64,000 nt of DNA from a virus. The position numbers and the translations under genes were made by a program. The stretch is taken from the IMG/VR virus record IMGVR_UViG_3300044977_000094, positions 32,001-96,000 of that record; one strand, written 5' to 3'. Within the stretch, counting starts at the first letter, position 1, and the number at the start of each line of letters is the position of its first letter. Below, in pieces: positions 35,062 to 43,933 of the stretch. Below the pieces are notes generated by a model, which saw only the letters and a program-made list of their open reading frames with translations, did not search any database and was not told where the DNA came from.

Positions 35062-35409
35062 TTATTCCCCGACGGTCTGCCAGTCATCGGCGAGGAGGTC
35101 CGACTGCGATGCGACCCACGGGACGAAGTCGCCCTGGGCGGTCAGCATCATCAGGTACGGCCGGAACTTCCGGACGGTTCCCTCGGGGATGCCGGTGGCC
35201 TGGGCGGTGTTGGCGTTGATCGCAATGCCGTCCGGGTAGCCGGGCTGGTGCACGACGAACATGCCGTGCCCGTTCCAGCCGGCGCGGGTGACCCGGGAGC
35301 CGCTCTTGAGTGCGGTGAGCGCGGCGCCGAAGTCCATTGCCGCGGGCGCATGGGGCTGCGGCGCGGGTTCGACGTGGGGGCGGGGGCGGGAGTGCGCGTG
35401 GTGGGACAC
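35062..35409 (-). CDS. DUF2829 / Tad2-like protein
   Basis: MDFGAAL..LKSG.RV.RAGWNG.GMF...PWVASQSDLLADDW. Confidence 0.88.
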   Translation of the reverse strand: MSHHAHSRPRPHVEPAPQPHAPAAMDFGAALTALKSGSRVTRAGWNGHGMFVVHQPGYPDGIAINANTAQATGIPEGTVRKFRPYLMMLTAQGDFVPWVASQSDLLADDWQTVGE

Positions 35410-35558
35410 GAGGGCTCCATCGTGAGGGTGGGTGATGTCGATTGGTCTCGCGGCCCCGGCCGGGTGGGCAGGCGGGGGCCGCGAGATGCCCGCGACCCTC
35501 GACACGGGCGCGGGTACCCCGCCGTGGTCCGCACCCAGGACAGCGGGGAGAAGAGGGG

Positions 35559-35774
35559 TCAGGCGGCGAGCACGGCGGACTCGGCCCGCTTGGCAATCTC
35601 GGCCCTGACCTCGGGCTCGGCGTAGAGCGTCCCCTCGCTGCGCCGGCGACCGGGGAATCGCTGGATCTTGCCGCGTGTCGCCCACTGGCGGATCGCTGCC
35701 TCGCTCACACCCGCGAGGGCCGCCGCCTCGGCTCCGGTGATCAGCTCGTCCGGGTACACATTCAAGGGAATCAC
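35559..35774 (-). CDS. MerR/Xis-like HTH protein
   Basis: ITGAEAAALAGVSEAAIRQWATRGKI. Confidence 0.75.
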   Translation of the reverse strand: MIPLNVYPDELITGAEAAALAGVSEAAIRQWATRGKIQRFPGRRRSEGTLYAEPEVRAEIAKRAESAVLAA

Positions 35775-35794
35775 GCGATCCACCCCCGAACGCG

Positions 35795-35826
35795 AAAAAG
35801 CCCCCGCCGTGGTGACGGCGGGGGCT
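35795..35826 (-). terminator. intrinsic terminator
   Basis: AGCCCCCGCCGT-CACC-ACGGCGGGGGCT followed by TTTT. Confidence 0.75.
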
Positions 35827-35890
35827 CGAAGGCATACCTGTATCAGGTGATCGGATTGTGACACCAGAAGGATCACCCGCGCAAGTGGCC

Positions 35891-36559
35891 TCAGGCAGCG
35901 ACAGGACGAGTGGCCTCATACAGCGCCATCCACTCCTCGCGGCCCCACCGCTGGCCGCAGTCCGGACACTTCACCGACGCCCGGTTGATGTCCACCCGCA
36001 TCGGCGCTTCGCATTCGGTGCCGTCGTCGAACAGGTAGCGGCAGTGCACCGGGATCAGGCACGGCTGGGTGCCGTCGATGGTGTGCTTCGCCCGCCAGTA
36101 CAGGGTGCTGATCGTGTCGAGGTCGTCGGCGACGTCCTCGTAGCTCTCGCAGGCGGTGGCCAGGTTGATCGTGAGGTGGTTGACCACGTCGGCGAGGGTC
36201 TGCCGGAGGTCGCCGGCAAAGGTGGCGATGGTGCGGCCACGGGCCTTGCGCCAGGAGTCCTCGACGGCCTGGAGTTGGGTGACGATGCCGCCCTTGGCCC
36301 GCATGTCGAGGGGCTGGAGTGCCACGGGCAGCGGAGCCGTCTTCGGCTTGCCGACGCGCGCGCCACTGCCGGAGCGGCCGGGGGTGAGGAGTTCGCCCAG
36401 GGAGTCGTACTGCTTGGGGAGAGCGCGCAGGTGGGTGCGGGCGCGGCTCTCGCAGAGGAAGCAGGTGAAGCGGTTGAGCTCGGACTGGAACAGCTTCCGC
36501 TTGCAGTGGCAGCAGAGGAATTCGGGTTCCTGGTCGGCGTCGGCGGAGTGGACGGGCAT
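35891..36559 (-). CDS. Zn-finger protein, probable late-gene regulator
   Basis: CxxC pairs at both ends; position just before the packaging operon. Confidence 0.6.
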   Translation of the reverse strand: MPVHSADADQEPEFLCCHCKRKLFQSELNRFTCFLCESRARTHLRALPKQYDSLGELLTPGRSGSGARVGKPKTAPLPVALQPLDMRAKGGIVTQLQAVEDSWRKARGRTIATFAGDLRQTLADVVNHLTINLATACESYEDVADDLDTISTLYWRAKHTIDGTQPCLIPVHCRYLFDDGTECEAPMRVDINRASVKCPDCGQRWGREEWMALYEATRPVAA

Positions 36560-36677: not shown

Positions 36678-38264
36678 TCAGCCCCGCTTCTCCCACGGCC
36701 ACGACGCATTGCGCCCGGCCTCCAGCAACGGCACCATGCGGAACGCGTGGTCGGTCAGGCCGCCGAAGGTGTGCCGGTTCCGGCTGCCGGACGGACCGTG
36801 GCCGACCCGGTAGCCAGCCAGGTTCCAGGTGTACACCGGCACGTTCGCTGGAACCGCGGTGTCCACCGTGTGCCCGGTGCGCGAGTACGCGGTCTGCTCG
36901 TCGGTCACCACGACGACGCGGTCGTGGCCGCGGTAGTTGTCGGCGATGGCCCGTGGGGTGTCCGTGCCATCGTCCATCCGGAACCGGCCCATCACGGTCA
37001 GGATCGCGTCGCCGCGCTGGAACTGCACCGGGTAGTGGCTCATGCCGTAGCCGACGAGGTCGGCCGACTCGGCGCGCAGTGCGAGCGCGGCCCCGAACAG
37101 CGCAGCCTTCTCCGCGAGGGCGATGTCGCTGTCGGTGCGGGTCGAGTAGACGTAGCCGGGGAACATCGACGGCGACTGGTCAATGCACACCAGTGTGCGG
37201 CCGGTCAGTGACGGCACGTTGGCCAGGGAGGATCGCAGACTCTTCTCCAGGGCGTGACCCCAGCGCAGGCTGGCCGTGTTCTTGTGCGCGGAGTAGAACC
37301 GGAACGGGAACTGCCGAGAGCGGGCGACCTCGGTCGGGTTGGCCAGCTTGGCGGCGACCTGCTCGGCAACCTCGTCGGACACTCCAGCCTGGTCGAAGTT
37401 CCGCAGGTTCCGCAGCAGCGCCATGTAGCCCATGGACGGGATCACCGCTTCCCAGGCCGCGGCGTCCATGGGGCCCTGGAGCCAGCCGGCCAGTGCCTCC
37501 CAGGTCATGCCCGCGTGCTGGAGCAGGTCCGGGTGCTCGCGCACTACCGTGCGGCGCTGGTCGACGGGGGTGGCCATGAGCTGTTCGCGGGCGACGATGG
37601 TGGACAGGCTGCCGGGCACGTCGGTGTCGCGTCCGTGTCGGCGGTCGATGGCGTGCTTGAACAGGTCGCCCTGCCAGCGCCGGCCGGTGGCGGGTGCGGC
37701 GTGGACGAGTTCGAGGACGTCACCGAAGCGGTAGCCCTTGGAGTCGGTGTCGTACTTGAGCAGCGCTCGCTCGCTGTAGAGGCGCTGGACGGCGTCGGCG
37801 ATTCCGCGCTTGACGGGCTTGGACAGGTTGCGGCCGTAGCGGCTGGTCCAGTAGGCGAGGAGTTCACCGGGCTCGTCGGGGCGCTGGAGAACGGAGTCGA
37901 TGACCTGGCGGGACTGGCCGTCGAGCTTGGCGTCGAGTCGGGCCTTGGCGAACTCGGCCGCGCCGACGAGGGATGCGGTGCGCATGTTGCCGTCGTCGCG
38001 CAGCCAGCCGAGGAGCCCGGCGGTCCACTCCGGGGCGGAGACGGCGAGCTCTCGGATGAGCTGGGTGTAGCGGTCGTCGCGCTGGCCGCCGGATTCGTAG
38101 AAGGTGTCCTGGCCGACGAGGTTGGAGACGGCGAGGAGGAACAGCTCGCTCTTCTCGTCGCGGAGGTAACCGGTCGCGCCCTCGAAGGTGCGCGTGGCGA
38201 CCCCGGTCGTGGTGACGGGGGACGTGCCGGCCGGGCGGACGTGGGGGGTGTTGAAGCGTGACAT
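36678..38264 (-). CDS. rsr: Ro60/TROVE-domain RNA-binding protein with vWA domain
   Basis: ELFLLAV..FYES, GNMRT, RPDEPGE, YMALLRNLRN, SRQFPFRF, DQSPSM (MIDAS), VVTDEQ. Confidence 0.95.
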   Translation of the reverse strand: MSRFNTPHVRPAGTSPVTTTGVATRTFEGATGYLRDEKSELFLLAVSNLVGQDTFYESGGQRDDRYTQLIRELAVSAPEWTAGLLGWLRDDGNMRTASLVGAAEFAKARLDAKLDGQSRQVIDSVLQRPDEPGELLAYWTSRYGRNLSKPVKRGIADAVQRLYSERALLKYDTDSKGYRFGDVLELVHAAPATGRRWQGDLFKHAIDRRHGRDTDVPGSLSTIVAREQLMATPVDQRRTVVREHPDLLQHAGMTWEALAGWLQGPMDAAAWEAVIPSMGYMALLRNLRNFDQAGVSDEVAEQVAAKLANPTEVARSRQFPFRFYSAHKNTASLRWGHALEKSLRSSLANVPSLTGRTLVCIDQSPSMFPGYVYSTRTDSDIALAEKAALFGAALALRAESADLVGYGMSHYPVQFQRGDAILTVMGRFRMDDGTDTPRAIADNYRGHDRVVVVTDEQTAYSRTGHTVDTAVPANVPVYTWNLAGYRVGHGPSGSRNRHTFGGLTDHAFRMVPLLEAGRNASWPWEKRG

Positions 38265-38265
38265 G

Positions 38266-38290
38266 AAAAAGCCCCTCGCTGTGGAGGGGA
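38266..38290 (-). terminator. terminator-like hairpin overlapping the rsr RBS
   Basis: CCCCTC-CACAGC-GAGGGG-CTTTTTC-ATG. Confidence 0.55.
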
Positions 38291-38301
38291 GGAGATGCAA
38301 T

Positions 38302-38441
38302 GGGGTGCCCGAGATCGGAGTCGGCGACGGCGTGATTGTCAATTGCGCTACCCATTGCGCCACCGGCAACCGTGAGGTGGCCGGGCGGGACTTGAACCCG
38401 CAACCCATTGAAGTATCCGTTGCCTTCGCACCGGGCACCCC
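38302..38441 (-). ncRNA. yrlA: YrlA-like Y RNA (permuted tRNA mimic)
   Basis: Terminal stem GGGGUGCCCG/CGGGCACCCC; T-arm GCGGG-UUCAAGU-CCCGC; closed acceptor-like stem; D-arm GCGC-AAUGGGUA-GCGC. Confidence 0.88.
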
Positions 38442-38450
38442 GATGCATAT

Positions 38451-38522
38451 CCTCCCGAGATCAAGGTCGGCCTGCGGCGTGATTCACCATAAGAAGTAGC
38501 CGCTGGCCAGCGCACCGGGAGG
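38451..38522 (-). ncRNA. minimal Y RNA lacking a tRNA-like domain
   Basis: Same GGUGCG / CUUGAUCUC stem motif as the flanking RNAs, capped by a short loop. Confidence 0.72.
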
Positions 38523-38537
38523 TGCATGTGAAGTTGT

Positions 38538-38676
38538 GTATCCAGAGTTCAAGGTTGGCGACGCGGTCGTAAGCGCTCTGGGCCGCTGAGCTACCGGCGC
38601 AGAAGCGCCGGCCGGGATTCGAACCCGGGTCTCTCTCTTAGCAGGAGAAGAACTCGTCACCTTCGCACCTGGATGC
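38538..38676 (-). ncRNA. yrlA: YrlA-like Y RNA with a full permuted cloverleaf
   Basis: UUCUC-CUGCUAA-GAGAG; CCGGG-UUCGAAU-CCCGG; CCGGCGC-UUCU-GCGCCGG; GCUC-AGCGGCCCA-GAGC. Confidence 0.88.
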
Positions 38677-41668: not shown

Positions 41669-43933
41669 TCAAGGGCTGCCCTCGGTGACGGGCAGTCCGT
41701 ATTCGCCGCTGGCGCCCGGGTTGCGGGTGACAGTGCCGTCCTTGGTGAGGCCGCTGAGGGTGTTCTCGACGGTCTTGCGCGCGACGCCGGTCATCTGGGT
41801 GATCGCATCCAGGTGCAGGTAGCCGACCTCCAGGCCGATGGGGTCGCGGCGCTCATGGAGGACGGCGAGGATCTTCTCCTTCGCGGTCGGCTCCTTCGTC
41901 AGGGTCGTGCTCGGCTTGGCGGGCTTCCACTTCGAGGTGCCGTCCTCGTCCTCTTCCGCAGCTGGCCCGACGGGGGTCAAGGCGATGTTCTGGCGGTCGT
42001 CCCAGTCGGGGAAGTCGCCCGGAATGACGATCTTCTCGGGGTCGAACAGGCCGGCGGCGGATTCCAGGATCCAGGCGCGCATCATCTCCGCGCGCTCATC
42101 GGGGCCGACGACGTAGCCGACGCCAAAGGTGCGGCGCGGGTCGTCCTCGGCGACGGTGGCGTCGTAGATCAGGGCATCGTCGTCGCCCTTCCAGAACGCC
42201 GGGATCTTCGAGGGGTCGATGCCGTCGAAGGCTTCGGGCAAGTCCACGCGGTTTTTCTGCGCACTGTCGGAGCGCAGCAGAGCCAGGAAGCCGCCGTAGA
42301 AGAGGTTGTCGCGGATCGAGGTGTCGCCAGCCATCTTTTCGAGGTTCAGGATCTGGCCGCACAGGATCAGGCACATCCCCAGTGAGCGGGCCTGCTCGGC
42401 GATCGCCGCGACGATGAACCCGGCTTCGGCGCGGTATGGGCTCTTCTCGCCGAGGAGCTGTGCGAACTCGTCGAGGATGACGGCGATCCAGGGGCGGTCC
42501 GTGCTGGCGATGAAGTTCTTCTGCCGCATGGCCGCAGACTCCATGACGCGGTGCTGGAGTATCGCGTAGGCGACGCGCAGCGCCCCCAGGGCTTCCTCGG
42601 GGCCACAGCCAGCGTGGGCAGCCATATCTTCCACGTCGGGGTTCGAGGATCCCTTGGGGTCGGCGTAAATGAGCGCAAAGCGGTTGACGTGGTAGGCCAG
42701 AGCGAGGATTTGAAGGACGCCGCCCTTGCCGGAGCCGGTGACGCCGGCGACCAGACCGTGGCGACCGCCGCCCTTCTCGTCGAAGAGCTGGACGCGGGCG
42801 GGACGGCCGGAGATCCCGGTTCCGATGGCGACGAATCCGTTTTGGTTGGCGACCAGGGTGTCCGGGCCGGGCAGGGGCCGGCCCTCTTCCAGCGGTGAGC
42901 GGTCCATCATGCGCAGCTTGGCCTTGCGCGGGTTGTTGGTCGCGGTGACTGACACGAGCAGGGTGGTGGTGCGCAGGGCTCCGGCGATGCGGTAGGCGTC
43001 GGGCATGGTGATCGCGTCGGTGTCTTCGTCGGCGACGATCCACGCGGCGACGCCGCCGGTGGCCGGGTCGGGGATGGTGCCTTCGAGGTGGGTGCCGGGC
43101 ATGCAGCCGTTCTTGTGGCCGACGCGGCGCATCCACAGTGCGTCCAGGGCGCTGTACTGGGGCTCGTCGACTGCGGGGGCGACCATGTGGACCAGGATGC
43201 GGCGGGCACTGGTGTGCGGGCCCGCGGTGATGTGGACCTGCTCGACGGGGATGCGGTAGACGCCGGACACCGTCTCGGCGGTGACCGAGACGGGCCGGCC
43301 GGGGTCGGCTTCGATCGTGCCCTCCCATGCCTCGGGGCTGTGGCCGGTCAGGGTGAGGTGGTTGCCGGGGTGGGCGCCGTCCTCCCGGGAGATGTGGATG
43401 TGCCAGGGCATCAGCACGTCATCGCCAGGAGCCGGCGCCGCGGCCGGTGCGGGGTTGGCGGGTGCCTGGTAGGCGAGGGCCTGGGGGCGGTGCCCGCGCA
43501 GGACACGGCGCAGCGAGAACGTGACGTACCCGGTCGCGCCCCACCAGGCCAGGGAGACCAGGCCGGACAGCGACGGCAGTGCCATCCATCCGGCGACCAG
43601 GGAGTCGACGCCGGGCCAGCCGTGCATGGTCGCCGTGGCCGCTGCGGTGGCGGTGGCGATCACGGAGACCAGGAACGGCTCGCGATGGGCGCGCAGGATG
43701 TCACCGCCGGGCAGGGCGTCCATGGCGTCGTCGGGCAGCAGACGGGTGAAGTTCGCCCCGGCCATCAGGGCCGGCGCGACCAGGAGGACGCTGACGGTGC
43801 CCGCGGCCTGCCCGTCCAGCAGCGGCATGGTCAGAGCCGTCGCCAGTGGTGCGGCGGCCTGGGCGACGGCGAAGCGCTTCTCCGCACGCGGGTTCGGCGC
43901 ATGGGCAACTGCGGTGGTGTCGTTGGTGGTCAC
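41669..43933 (-). CDS. traB: FtsK/SpoIIIE-like conjugative DNA translocase
   Basis: N-terminal TMs, GVTGSGKG Walker A, ILDEF Walker B, ARSLG, C-terminal wHTH. Confidence 0.85.
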   Translation of the reverse strand: MTTNDTTAVAHAPNPRAEKRFAVAQAAAPLATALTMPLLDGQAAGTVSVLLVAPALMAGANFTRLLPDDAMDALPGGDILRAHREPFLVSVIATATAAATATMHGWPGVDSLVAGWMALPSLSGLVSLAWWGATGYVTFSLRRVLRGHRPQALAYQAPANPAPAAAPAPGDDVLMPWHIHISREDGAHPGNHLTLTGHSPEAWEGTIEADPGRPVSVTAETVSGVYRIPVEQVHITAGPHTSARRILVHMVAPAVDEPQYSALDALWMRRVGHKNGCMPGTHLEGTIPDPATGGVAAWIVADEDTDAITMPDAYRIAGALRTTTLLVSVTATNNPRKAKLRMMDRSPLEEGRPLPGPDTLVANQNGFVAIGTGISGRPARVQLFDEKGGGRHGLVAGVTGSGKGGVLQILALAYHVNRFALIYADPKGSSNPDVEDMAAHAGCGPEEALGALRVAYAILQHRVMESAAMRQKNFIASTDRPWIAVILDEFAQLLGEKSPYRAEAGFIVAAIAEQARSLGMCLILCGQILNLEKMAGDTSIRDNLFYGGFLALLRSDSAQKNRVDLPEAFDGIDPSKIPAFWKGDDDALIYDATVAEDDPRRTFGVGYVVGPDERAEMMRAWILESAAGLFDPEKIVIPGDFPDWDDRQNIALTPVGPAAEEDEDGTSKWKPAKPSTTLTKEPTAKEKILAVLHERRDPIGLEVGYLHLDAITQMTGVARKTVENTLSGLTKDGTVTRNPGASGEYGLPVTEGSP

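What the first reader, a model, noticed from the sequence alone, without database searches (positions are those of the whole stretch)
38538..38676. A Y RNA containing a complete circularly permuted tRNA, including an anticodon arm (GCU)
Seen: UUCUC-CUGCUAA-GAGAG (38633-38649) is a 5-bp stem with a canonical 7-nt CU-NNN-AA loop. It is followed by a 4-nt variable region, a T-arm, a 7-bp acceptor stem closed by UUCU and a D-arm. The cloverleaf is opened only between the D and anticodon arms. The sister RNA at 38302-38441 lacks this arm. In YrlA RNAs as usually described, the Ro stem replaces the anticodon arm. GCU would read Ser, but there is no long variable arm and no CCA end. Inference: a non-chargeable bait for anticodon nucleases or modification enzymes, or an intermediate between tRNA and Y RNA.
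Basis: partly seen in the sequence, partly recalled or inferred. Interest (0 to 1): 0.78.

Follow-up and report, generated by a model that had tools for sequence, protein, structure and literature searches.

The report
Phage Y RNA with anticodon arm
A small RNA encoded beside a phage's Ro60 gene is a known type of tRNA-mimicking Y RNA, but the hairpin that the literature calls a "variable arm" has the exact form of a tRNA anticodon arm, and its three-letter "anticodon" changes freely between relatives while the rest of the loop stays tRNA-like.

Summary
On the minus strand at 38538-38676, about 270 nt upstream of a TROVE/Ro60 (rsr) gene in a 175-kb actinophage, lies a YrlA-type Y RNA. It has a T arm, a closed 7-bp acceptor stem, a D arm, and a 5-bp/7-nt-loop hairpin (38633-38649, loop CU-GCU-AA) followed by a 4-nt variable loop.

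The hairpin is not peculiar to this RNA. About 90 of 137 distinct tRNA-like Y RNAs at 116 rsr loci (actinophages, Streptomycetaceae) have it, and so does the experimentally studied M. smegmatis YrlA. It is the stem-loop published as "V" (variable arm).

What I could not find described:
- The loop obeys anticodon-loop rules: U33 96%, purine-37 97%, no A34, G37 only with G36.
- It is usually identical at all 7 positions to the genuine host-type tRNA loop with the same triplet.
- The triplet changes at about the rate of rsr four-fold sites.
- Covariation shows the two lowest stem pairs are made by the two nucleotides after the D arm. The tRNA is therefore opened between positions 28 and 29, not 26 and 27.

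Function is inferred only. The scan has noted other YrlA-like RNAs on other DNA, but not this point.

The parts
38538..38676 (-). Whole Y RNA (YrlA type, 'long class'); ends approximate
   Evidence: Terminal stem 38669-38674 with 38540-38545 read. MFE fold. Rfam YrlA 33.2 bits over 38552-38660. Own model R1 107.6 bits.
38660..38668 (-). GUGCGAAGG, resembling the GNCGAAN0-1G motif proposed for Rsr binding
   Evidence: Read. Motif definition from PMC4201824. GUGCG(A/C)AGG is nearly invariant in 88 homologues.
38655..38661 (-). 5' strand of the Ro-proximal helix (GGUGACG)
   Evidence: Pairs with 38557-38563. The homologous columns covary in RNAalifold.
38557..38563 (-). 3' strand of the Ro-proximal helix (CGUCGCC)
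38650..38654 (-). 5' junction linker AGUUC; in most homologues this is G-U-U/A-A-C of the invariant UACUUC motif
38633..38649 (-). Anticodon-arm look-alike: UUCUC / CUGCUAA / GAGAG. Upper three pairs are 38647-38645 with 38637-38635. U38649 and U38648 are the cis alternatives for positions 27-28.
38638..38644 (-). 7-nt loop C32 U33 G34 C35 U36 A37 A38, identical to the tRNA-Ser(GCU) loop of a Streptomycetaceae genome
38629..38632 (-). Variable loop AGAC; the last C can form the Levitt pair with G15 of the D loop
   Evidence: In the family this loop is 5 nt in 77 RNAs and 4 nt in 16, with the same sequences as real tRNAs.
38612..38628 (-). T arm CCGGG-UUCGAAU-CCCGG
38594..38611 (-). Closed 7-bp acceptor stem CCGGCGC-UUCU-GCGCCGG (G1-C72 at the loop end)
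   Evidence: All seven pairs covary in the family.
38575..38593 (-). U8 A9 and the D arm GCUC-AGCGGCCCA-GAGC
38572..38574 (-). G26, then C and U that pair in trans with G38633 and A38634 (tRNA positions 27-28 with 43-42)
   Evidence: Family covariation: 97.2% paired, GC59/CG23/AU2 and GC67/AU13/CG4.
38564..38571 (-). 3' junction linker UACGACCG
38451..38522 (-). Neighbour: minimal Y RNA with the Ro-type stem and UACUUC but no tRNA module (YrlB-like)
   Evidence: Read only; not tested further.
38302..38441 (-). Neighbour: 'short class' YrlA without the hairpin; its anticodon stem is made by the 5' and 3' strands
   Evidence: Rfam YrlA 44.9 bits. Fold z = -2.3. Class comparison.
36678..38264 (-). 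rsr: Ro60/TROVE protein, 528 aa
   Evidence: Pfam TROVE 1.1e-17. PHROG 850 RNA-binding protein 1e-45. Annotated Ro-like in Streptomyces, Gordonia and Arthrobacter phages.

Best explanation
This is a YrlA-class Y RNA of an actinophage.

Architecture. Its paired 5' and 3' ends form the stem that docks the phage's Ro60/Rsr ring. The rest is a whole tRNA written in rotated order. The hairpin the literature calls the 'V' stem-loop is in fact the anticodon arm of that tRNA. The three upper pairs and the 7-nt loop come from the 5' strand. The two lower pairs (27-28 with 42-43) come from the two nucleotides that follow the D arm. Together they make a 5-bp stem that joins the 4-5-nt variable loop with no intervening nucleotides. 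The Ro-binding helix branches off between positions 28 and 29.

Loop evolution. The loop is held to the rules of real anticodon loops, while the triplet itself drifts among 'legal' anticodons.

How it most likely works (inferred). The RNA presents Rsr with a complete tRNA look-alike that host tRNA enzymes accept. TruB, Dus, RNase P and the CCA-adding enzyme are shown for relatives in print. Enzymes that read U36-A37 or G36-G37 are inferred here. The look-alike thereby tethers Rsr to, or competes for, a tRNA-binding partner that sees the anticodon arm as well as the elbow.
For: - Anatomy at the stated coordinates.
- The TROVE gene lies 270 nt downstream on the same strand.
- Rfam YrlA matches, though below the cut-off.
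- The hairpin is conserved in 83 of 90 spacing-selected homologues, against 12% after shuffling.
- Cis covariation: 38 double-change cells.
- The composite stem does better: 94.3% paired, 81 double-change cells, score 0.589 against 0.350, and the trans helix is 97.2% paired. The trans covariation comes from several separate stem types.
- Loop statistics for n=93: C32 86%, U33 96%, A34 0%, R37 97%, A38 94%. There are 22 distinct triplets. G37 occurs only with G36, 13/13.
- Entropy is 1.15-1.47 bits at positions 34-36, against 0.2-0.5 at 32, 33, 37 and 38.
- 57 of 70 loops are identical at 7/7 positions to the real tRNA loop of the same anticodon in a Streptomycetaceae genome. For distinct loops this is 12/24 against 7.6 permuted, p=0.003. 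Variable loops use the same words, such as AGGUC, GGGUC and UGGUU.
- M. smegmatis YrlA, which is Rsr-bound, RNase P-cleaved and CCA-tailed in vivo, contains CCA-CUUCUAA-UGG-AA-UGGUC (probe in PMC4201824).
- Some loci carry several such RNAs with different triplets.
Against: - RNAalifold left the hairpin region unpaired.
- For this one sequence the nearest-neighbour model prefers the all-cis hairpin (-48.3) to the composite stem (-42.4 kcal/mol). So the trans pairs rest on covariation alone.
- The fold of the whole RNA is not better than shuffles (z = -1.2).
- The triplet changes at roughly the rate of rsr four-fold sites (0.42 against 0.30 per site). Its variation could therefore be mere lack of constraint.
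- The homologues are related, so counts are not independent events.
- There are no transcript, probing, modification or binding data for this phage.
- Two reviews of the field (PMC6047535, PMC10870794) were not available, so the anticodon-arm reading may already be in print.
Confidence: 0.65

Rival explanations
1. The hairpin is what the literature says it is: a long variable arm like that of class II tRNAs. It would be a structural strut, and the anticodon stem would be the helix made by the 5' and 3' strands that leads to the Ro site.
For: Chen 2014 and Wang 2018 draw it so. The lower part of the stem is indeed made with the 3' strand, as in canonical YrlA. RNAalifold did not call the hairpin.
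Against: - The hairpin lies 5' of the two nucleotides (42-43) that pair with 27-28, so it sits inside the anticodon-stem strand and not between positions 45 and 48.
- It is followed by a complete 4-5-nt class I variable loop with tRNA words.
- Its loop is 7 nt with U33 and R37. From general knowledge, variable-arm loops are 3-5 nt.
- Cis pairs plus trans pairs add up to exactly 5 bp with no junction nucleotide between them.
- An 8-10-nt linker would have to replace nucleotide 26.
Confidence: 0.12
2. The arm is a decoy or sensor for anticodon-directed host nucleases (or for modification enzymes). Each Y RNA mimics one tRNA species, and phages change or multiply the triplet as hosts change their tRNA-targeting defences.
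For: - Loops copy genuine tRNA loops, including position 32 and 37 idiosyncrasies.
- The triplet differs in 76% of RNA pairs that are at least 95% identical elsewhere.
- Arrays carry different triplets in one locus.
- The phage has no tRNA genes of its own.
- A Tad2-like anti-defence domain gene lies two genes away.
- In Salmonella, rsr and yrlA belong to an operon induced by damaged tRNAs (abstract of PMC7790460).
Against: - No nuclease, cleavage product or defence system is linked to these loci by anything I tested.
- The same RNAs sit at rsr loci on Streptomyces and Kitasatospora genome contigs; I did not check whether these are prophages.
- The triplet's rate is not clearly above neutral.
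Confidence: 0.25
3. The arm is an evolutionary relic. YrlA arose from two tandem tRNA genes, and the long class still keeps the anticodon arm of the first one. The arm is kept only because it stabilises the junction.
For: - The tandem-tRNA origin model is cited in Wang 2018.
- Tandem tRNA genes score 40-50 bits with my permuted model.
- The triplet evolves at about the neutral rate.
Against: - A relic without function should not keep U33, R37, the G36-G37 coupling, avoidance of A34 and a U-rich 35-36 in 69%-GC genomes.
- The flanks 32, 33, 37 and 38 are among the best conserved positions.
Confidence: 0.2
4. It is a precursor of a working two-piece tRNA. RNase P opens the acceptor loop and CCA is added, as in M. 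smegmatis. The split molecule, now with an anticodon, is then aminoacylated and used.
For: - 7-bp acceptor stem with G1-C72; 74 of 93 long-class RNAs have 7-8 perfect pairs.
- Wang 2018 raises further processing as a possibility.
Against: - Near-identical scaffolds carry different triplets, so acceptor identity and anticodon cannot match.
- GCU here comes without the long variable arm of tRNA-Ser.
- A helix with a 60-kDa ring branching from the anticodon stem is unlikely to fit the ribosome (inference).
- No RtcB in the phage.
Confidence: 0.06

Closest known systems
YrlA of Mycobacterium smegmatis (Chen et al. 2014, PMC4201824)
   Same: It is encoded upstream of rsr together with a YrlB and is bound by Rsr. 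It has a 7-bp closed acceptor stem. It carries the same hairpin with a 7-nt loop, CUUCUAA, followed by UGGUC (from the published probe). Its half sizes of 82 and 65 nt fit this RNA's layout.
   Different: The cis stem there is 3 bp and lacks the UU that could pair in cis. The hairpin is drawn in print as the 'V' arm. The host is a bacterium, not a phage. The triplet is UCU, not GCU.
YrlA of Salmonella Typhimurium (Rfam RF02553; structure 6CU1; Wang et al. 2018, 10.1101/312249)
   Same: A Ro-binding stem plus T arm, closed acceptor stem and D arm in the same rotated order. The same tertiary-contact nucleotides. The top of the anticodon stem is made with the strand that follows the D arm.
   Different: The Salmonella RNA 'lacks the anticodon loop': its whole anticodon stem is made by the 5' and 3' strands. 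The RNA here scores only 33 bits against a cut-off of 69 and carries a 3-bp cis hairpin with a 7-nt loop inserted in that strand.
Yrn1 of Deinococcus radiodurans
   Same: A Y RNA for which Chen 2014 noted a potential 'anticodon arm' with a 5-bp stem.
   Different: There the loop has 6 nt, there is no variable arm, the D arm is doubtful and the arms are oriented differently. Chen 2014 suggest that YrlA and Yrn1 evolved independently.
Circularly permuted tRNA genes of red algae and an archaeon (cited in Wang 2018; otherwise from my own knowledge)
   Same: [quoted passage not shown]
   Different: Those are spliced, circularised and matured into real tRNAs by an endonuclease not known in bacteria. 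Here the paired ends are a Ro60 docking site, and the scaffold does not match the triplet.
Class II tRNA variable arm
   Same: A hairpin between the anticodon-stem region and the T arm. This is the published reading of the element.
   Different: Position in the chain, loop length, loop sequence rules and the presence of a separate 4-5-nt variable loop all differ.

Membership tests
YrlA-type bacterial/phage Y RNA | Encoded within about 4 kb of a Ro60/TROVE gene on the same strand | tested here: met
   The RNA is at 38538-38676(-) and rsr at 36678-38264(-). Pfam TROVE 1.1e-17. Criterion from PMC4201824.
YrlA-type bacterial/phage Y RNA | 5' and 3' ends pair into a stem carrying the GNCGAAN0-1G motif | tested here: inconclusive
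   The stem is present and covaries in the family. The motif here is GUGCGAAGG, which is close to the published pattern but not an exact fit.
YrlA-type bacterial/phage Y RNA | T arm, closed acceptor stem-loop and D arm in that order, with tRNA tertiary-contact nucleotides | tested here: met
   Read: U8, A14, G15-C48, GG in the D loop, UUCGAAU in the T loop. The arms covary in 88 homologues.
YrlA-type bacterial/phage Y RNA | Reaches the Rfam RF02553 gathering score | tested here: not met
   33.2 bits against 69, E=2e-5. The model's 7-bp stem is not formed. The sister RNA scores 44.9 bits.
YrlA-type bacterial/phage Y RNA | Bound by Rsr; modified by TruB/Dus | not testable with these tools
   Shown only for Salmonella and M. 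smegmatis RNAs in PMC4201824.
YrlA as described structurally (no anticodon loop) | Anticodon stem made wholly by the 5' and 3' strands; no anticodon loop | tested here: not met
   Only pairs 27-28/42-43 are made that way. Pairs 29-31/39-41 close a 7-nt loop.
Genuine tRNA gene | Cloverleaf in standard order with free acceptor ends | tested here: not met
   ARAGORN finds none in the window or in the whole phage. Rfam tRNA 28.4 bits against 29, using a false acceptor stem.
Genuine tRNA gene | 7-nt anticodon loop with U33 and purine-37 on a 5-bp stem, then a 4-5-nt or long variable region | tested here: met
Genuine tRNA gene | Identity elements that fit the anticodon (for GCU: the long variable arm of tRNA-Ser) | tested here: not met
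   The variable loop is 4 nt. The real tRNA-Ser(GCU) of a related host genome has the same loop but a long arm. Near-identical scaffolds carry different triplets.
Class II-type variable arm | Hairpin placed after the anticodon-stem 3' strand (between 45 and 48) with a short loop | tested here: not met
   The hairpin precedes nucleotides 42-43, has a 7-nt loop and is followed by 4-5 unpaired nucleotides. The loop-length norm for variable arms is from my own knowledge.

The most novel reading that the evidence does not exclude
In actinobacteria and their phages, the 'variable arm' of YrlA is a working anticodon-arm mimic. Its triplet sets which host tRNA the Ro60-tethered RNA imitates. Phages and hosts switch triplets, or carry arrays with several, as a panel of decoys or sensors in conflicts fought over tRNA anticodon loops (anticodon nucleases, loop-modifying enzymes). 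This would name the long-sought class of partners of the YrlA tRNA-like domain.
Probability: 0.25. Interest if true: 0.85.

Novelty: new member of a known kind. Interest (0 to 1): 0.58.

Why it matters
The partner of the tRNA-like domain of YrlA RNAs is an open question. Published structural work points to a protein that reads the tRNA elbow.

This analysis covers about 90 actinobacterial and phage YrlA RNAs. It shows a full anticodon stem-loop that copies real tRNA loops position by position. The Ro-binding helix branches from inside the anticodon stem.

That widens the list of candidate partners to anything that reads an anticodon loop. It also gives direct experiments: map t6A37 or m1G37, look for cleavage, and swap triplets.

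There is also a practical point. ARAGORN calls about a quarter of these RNAs as tRNAs in their native order. At least one deposited phage genome (Gordonia phage VanLee) annotates its homologue as tRNA-Arg(tct).

Tried and rejected
- Rfam at gathering threshold: nothing in the window.
- ARAGORN on computationally 'un-rotated' sequences: 91 of 94 were called as tRNAs. But 81 were still called after shuffling the anticodon arm, so the test does not discriminate and I do not use it.
- A full 5-bp anticodon stem made in trans, as in canonical YrlA: it holds for the short class (28 of 38 with 5/5 pairs). In the long class only positions 27-28 are supported.
- UAAG/CUUA pairing seen by eye in this RNA: not conserved in BearBQ or VanLee.
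- Pairing of the triplet with the 3' linker or the acceptor loop: no correlation seen by inspection.
- RtcB in the phage: none.
- Sigma-70-type promoter upstream: none found.
- Class-wide search of 151 Actinomycetes genomes with my model: most hits at 40-50 bits were tandem tRNA genes. True long-class Y RNAs were seen in five genomes (G001, G149, G092, G034, G081). Loci from the unpublished genomes G007, G024 and G036 were not used.
- Positive selection on the triplet: not shown. Its rate is about that of rsr four-fold sites.
- Reading the reviews PMC6047535, PMC10870794 and PMC6542706: not held. Supplementary alignments of Chen 2014: not held.

Full report
**What is there.** The window is bases 32001-96000 of a 175-kb virus record with 69% G+C. 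The RNA lies on the minus strand. Read 5' to 3', it has these parts:
- a terminal stem (38669-38674 with 38540-38545);
- GUGCGAAGG (38668-38660), close to the motif proposed for Rsr binding;
- a second helix (38655-38661 with 38557-38563);
- the hairpin UUCUC-CUGCUAA-GAGAG (38649-38633);
- AGAC;
- a T arm (38628-38612);
- a 7-bp acceptor stem closed by UUCU (38611-38594);
- UA, then a D arm (38591-38575).

About 270 nt downstream on the same strand starts a 528-aa TROVE/Ro60 protein (PHROG 'RNA-binding protein'). Between them lie a minimal Y RNA and a second tRNA-like Y RNA (38302-38441) that lacks the hairpin.

Rfam's YrlA model matches both tRNA-like RNAs below its cut-off, at 33.2 and 44.9 bits against 69. 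Rfam's tRNA model reaches 28.4 of 29 bits on the hairpin plus T arm. ARAGORN finds no tRNA in the window or in the whole phage.

**Is the hairpin real and conserved?** I collected 34 viral contigs, 80 Streptomycetaceae and related genome loci, and two Gordonia phages through the Rsr protein. I searched them with a covariance model of the core. This gave 137 distinct tRNA-like Y RNAs.

The distance from the invariant UAC|UUC motif to the T stem falls into two groups:
- 21-22 nt in 90 RNAs ('long class', like this one);
- 10-20 nt in 38 ('short class', like the sister RNA); the remaining 9 have 23-26 nt.

Loci often carry one RNA of each class (21 loci). In the long class, selected by spacing alone, 83 of 90 have at least 4 of 5 hairpin pairs, against 12% after shuffling. 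On an ordinary MAFFT alignment of 88 full-length RNAs, the 5-bp hairpin is 88.6% paired. Shuffles give 75.9% (0/500 as high) and slid controls give 37-62%. There are 38 cells changed on both sides, against 6.6 expected.

**A refinement: the stem is built from three strands.** The first two nucleotides of the cis strand (UU) never vary, and they mismatch whenever position 43 is C. The two nucleotides that follow the D arm and nucleotide 26 covary with positions 43 and 42 instead: C-G, G-C or U-A, and C-G, U-A or G-C, in several unrelated stem backgrounds.

The composite stem has three cis pairs (29-31 with 39-41) and two trans pairs (27-28 with 42-43). It is 94.3% paired, has 81 double-change cells and scores 0.589 against 0.350 for the all-cis hairpin. 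The trans helix alone is 97.2% paired. In this RNA the trans pairs are C38573-G38633 and U38572-A38634.

The rotated tRNA is therefore opened between positions 28 and 29. The Ro-binding helix is a branch from inside the anticodon stem. The only junction with no intervening nucleotide is the one between the trans pairs and the hairpin, which favours their coaxial stacking into one 5-bp stem (inference).

Two caveats apply. For this single sequence the nearest-neighbour model prefers the all-cis hairpin, at -48.3 against -42.4 kcal/mol. RNAalifold left the region open.

In the short class the whole stem is made in trans, as in Salmonella YrlA (28 of 38 with 5/5 pairs).

**The loop behaves like an anticodon loop.** In 93 distinct long-class RNAs:
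- position 32 is C in 86%;
- 33 is U in 96%;
- 37 is a purine in 97%;
- 38 is A in 94%;
- 34 is never A.

The triplet takes 22 forms: GUU 22, CUU 13, GCU 9, GUC 8, UGG 6, CAU 5, UCG 4 and others. G37 occurs only with G36 (13 of 13 in the strict set). Entropy is 1.15-1.47 bits at positions 34-36, against 0.2-0.5 at 32, 33, 37 and 38.

I extracted 26 genuine tRNAs from a Streptomycetaceae chromosome that also has such a locus. Their loops include CUGCUAA (Ser-GCU), CUGUUAA (Asn), CUUCUAA (Arg-UCU), UUUGGGA (Pro), CUCCGGA (Arg-CCG) and AUGGUAA (Thr-GGU). Of the 70 Y-RNA loops whose triplet is represented, 57 are identical at all seven positions. Among distinct loops the figure is 12 of 24, against 7.6 under permutation of the flanks (p=0.003). 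The 4-5 nt after the hairpin (AGGUC, GGGUC, UGGUU, GUGUC and so on) are the same words as the variable loops of those tRNAs. The stems do not resemble the stems of those tRNAs, so wholesale copying from tRNA genes is unlikely.

**How fast does the triplet change?** Among RNA pairs at least 95% identical at 89 other positions, 76% differ in the triplet. Per-site difference is 0.42 in the triplet, 0.03 elsewhere in the RNA and 0.30 at four-fold degenerate sites of the adjacent rsr gene.

The triplet thus moves at about the neutral rate. That is not evidence of positive selection. Its composition, however, is not what a 69%-G+C genome would give: it is U-rich at positions 35-36 and has no A34. 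It appears to wander within a permitted set. Some loci carry two or more long-class RNAs with different triplets.

**What is already known.** Chen et al. 2014 described YrlA RNAs beside rsr in more than 250 bacteria and phages. [quoted passage not shown]

Wang et al. 2018 solved the Salmonella domain. They state that YrlA 'lacks the anticodon loop' and describe 'long VLs characteristic of class II tRNAs' in other species.

The Northern probe for the 5' half of M. smegmatis YrlA, given in Chen's Methods, reverse-complements to UUACCACUUCUAAUGGAAUGGUC. This reads as stem CCA/UGG, loop CUUCUAA, then AA and UGGUC. So the RNA that was shown to bind Rsr, to be cut by RNase P and to receive CCA has the same element.

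The hairpin itself is therefore known and common. I did not find the following in the papers I could read: its reading as an anticodon arm, the loop rules, the triplet turnover, or the 28|29 branch point. Two reviews of the field were not available.

The variable-arm reading fits poorly, for three reasons:
- the hairpin lies 5' of nucleotides 42-43, not between 45 and 48;
- it has a 7-nt loop;
- it is followed by a complete class I variable loop.

**Function.** Nothing here tests function. [quoted passage not shown] The inferred step is that the anticodon-like loop is read by proteins that read anticodon loops.

The U36-A37 and G36-G37 coupling is what enzymes installing t6A37 and m1G37 require. 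This rests on general knowledge of TsaD-type and TrmD enzymes. It would also be needed by any decoy for anticodon nucleases. The context is suggestive only: the phage has no tRNA genes, and a Tad2-like domain gene lies two genes from rsr.

A decoding role is unlikely, because near-identical scaffolds carry different triplets. GCU here also comes without the long arm of tRNA-Ser.

**Verdict.** The RNA is a new member of the known YrlA family, not a unique intermediate. The anticodon-arm reading of the published 'V' stem-loop is well supported by comparative evidence and, if not already in print, is a useful revision.

A side result concerns annotation. ARAGORN calls a tRNA in 23 of the 93 native long-class RNAs tested. 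The homologue in Gordonia phage VanLee is deposited as tRNA-Arg(tct).

Noticed in passing
L037:2477-2548 (Gordonia phage VanLee, NC_073474.1 65454-65525): The homologue of this Y RNA is annotated as tRNA-Arg(tct), directly upstream of the Ro-like gene. ARAGORN reproduces the call by using part of the Ro stem as a false acceptor and D arm. Three Y-type RNAs lie in that spacer.
   Followed up: partly
L038:2271-2357 (Gordonia phage BearBQ): A partial tRNA (anticodon arm, variable loop, T arm and 3' acceptor strand ending CUCCA) lies between the tyrosine integrase gene and the Y RNA/Ro locus. It looks like an attP core copied from a host tRNA gene.
   Followed up: no
window 38451-38522 (-): A minimal Y RNA with the same Ro-type stem and UACUUC motif but no tRNA module (YrlB-like) lies between the two tRNA-like Y RNAs.
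   Followed up: no
window 38272-38289 (-): A terminator-like hairpin CCCCUC-CACAGC-GAGGGG plus a U tract abuts the rsr start codon. It separates the Y RNA array from the protein gene.
   Followed up: partly
window 35062-35919 (-): The protein two genes downstream of rsr has a C-terminal Tad2-like (anti-Thoeris) domain (Pfam 2.5e-24). The 272-aa protein between it and rsr matches only PHROGs of unknown function.
   Followed up: partly
L031 (IMGVR_UViG_3300049138_000182), 1460-2400: At least six model matches in a row upstream of rsr, several of them long-class Y RNAs with different triplets (UUU, UCC, CGA, UGG). This is an array of tRNA mimics rather than a pair.
   Followed up: partly
whole virus record G000 (175,260 bases): No tRNA or tmRNA gene is found by ARAGORN in a 175-kb phage. 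The two YrlA RNAs are its only tRNA-shaped genes.
   Followed up: yes
L119 (G001:C1:8058140-8058228): The Peterkaempfera chromosome has a second strong long-class Y RNA (75 bits, loop CUGCUAA) about 6.7 Mb from its first rsr locus. I did not check whether a second rsr or a prophage lies there.
   Followed up: no
window 41669-43933 (-): A 754-aa FtsK/SpoIIIE-family protein (a TraB-like translocase of Streptomyces conjugative elements?) lies inside the phage, a few kb upstream of the Y RNA array.
   Followed up: no
loci L125, L128-L152 (various Actinomycetes genomes): Ordinary tandem tRNA genes score 40-50 bits with the rotated-tRNA model, matching the anticodon and T arms of one gene plus the acceptor and D arm of the next. 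This shows how easily a YrlA-like order arises from a tRNA dimer.
   Followed up: partly
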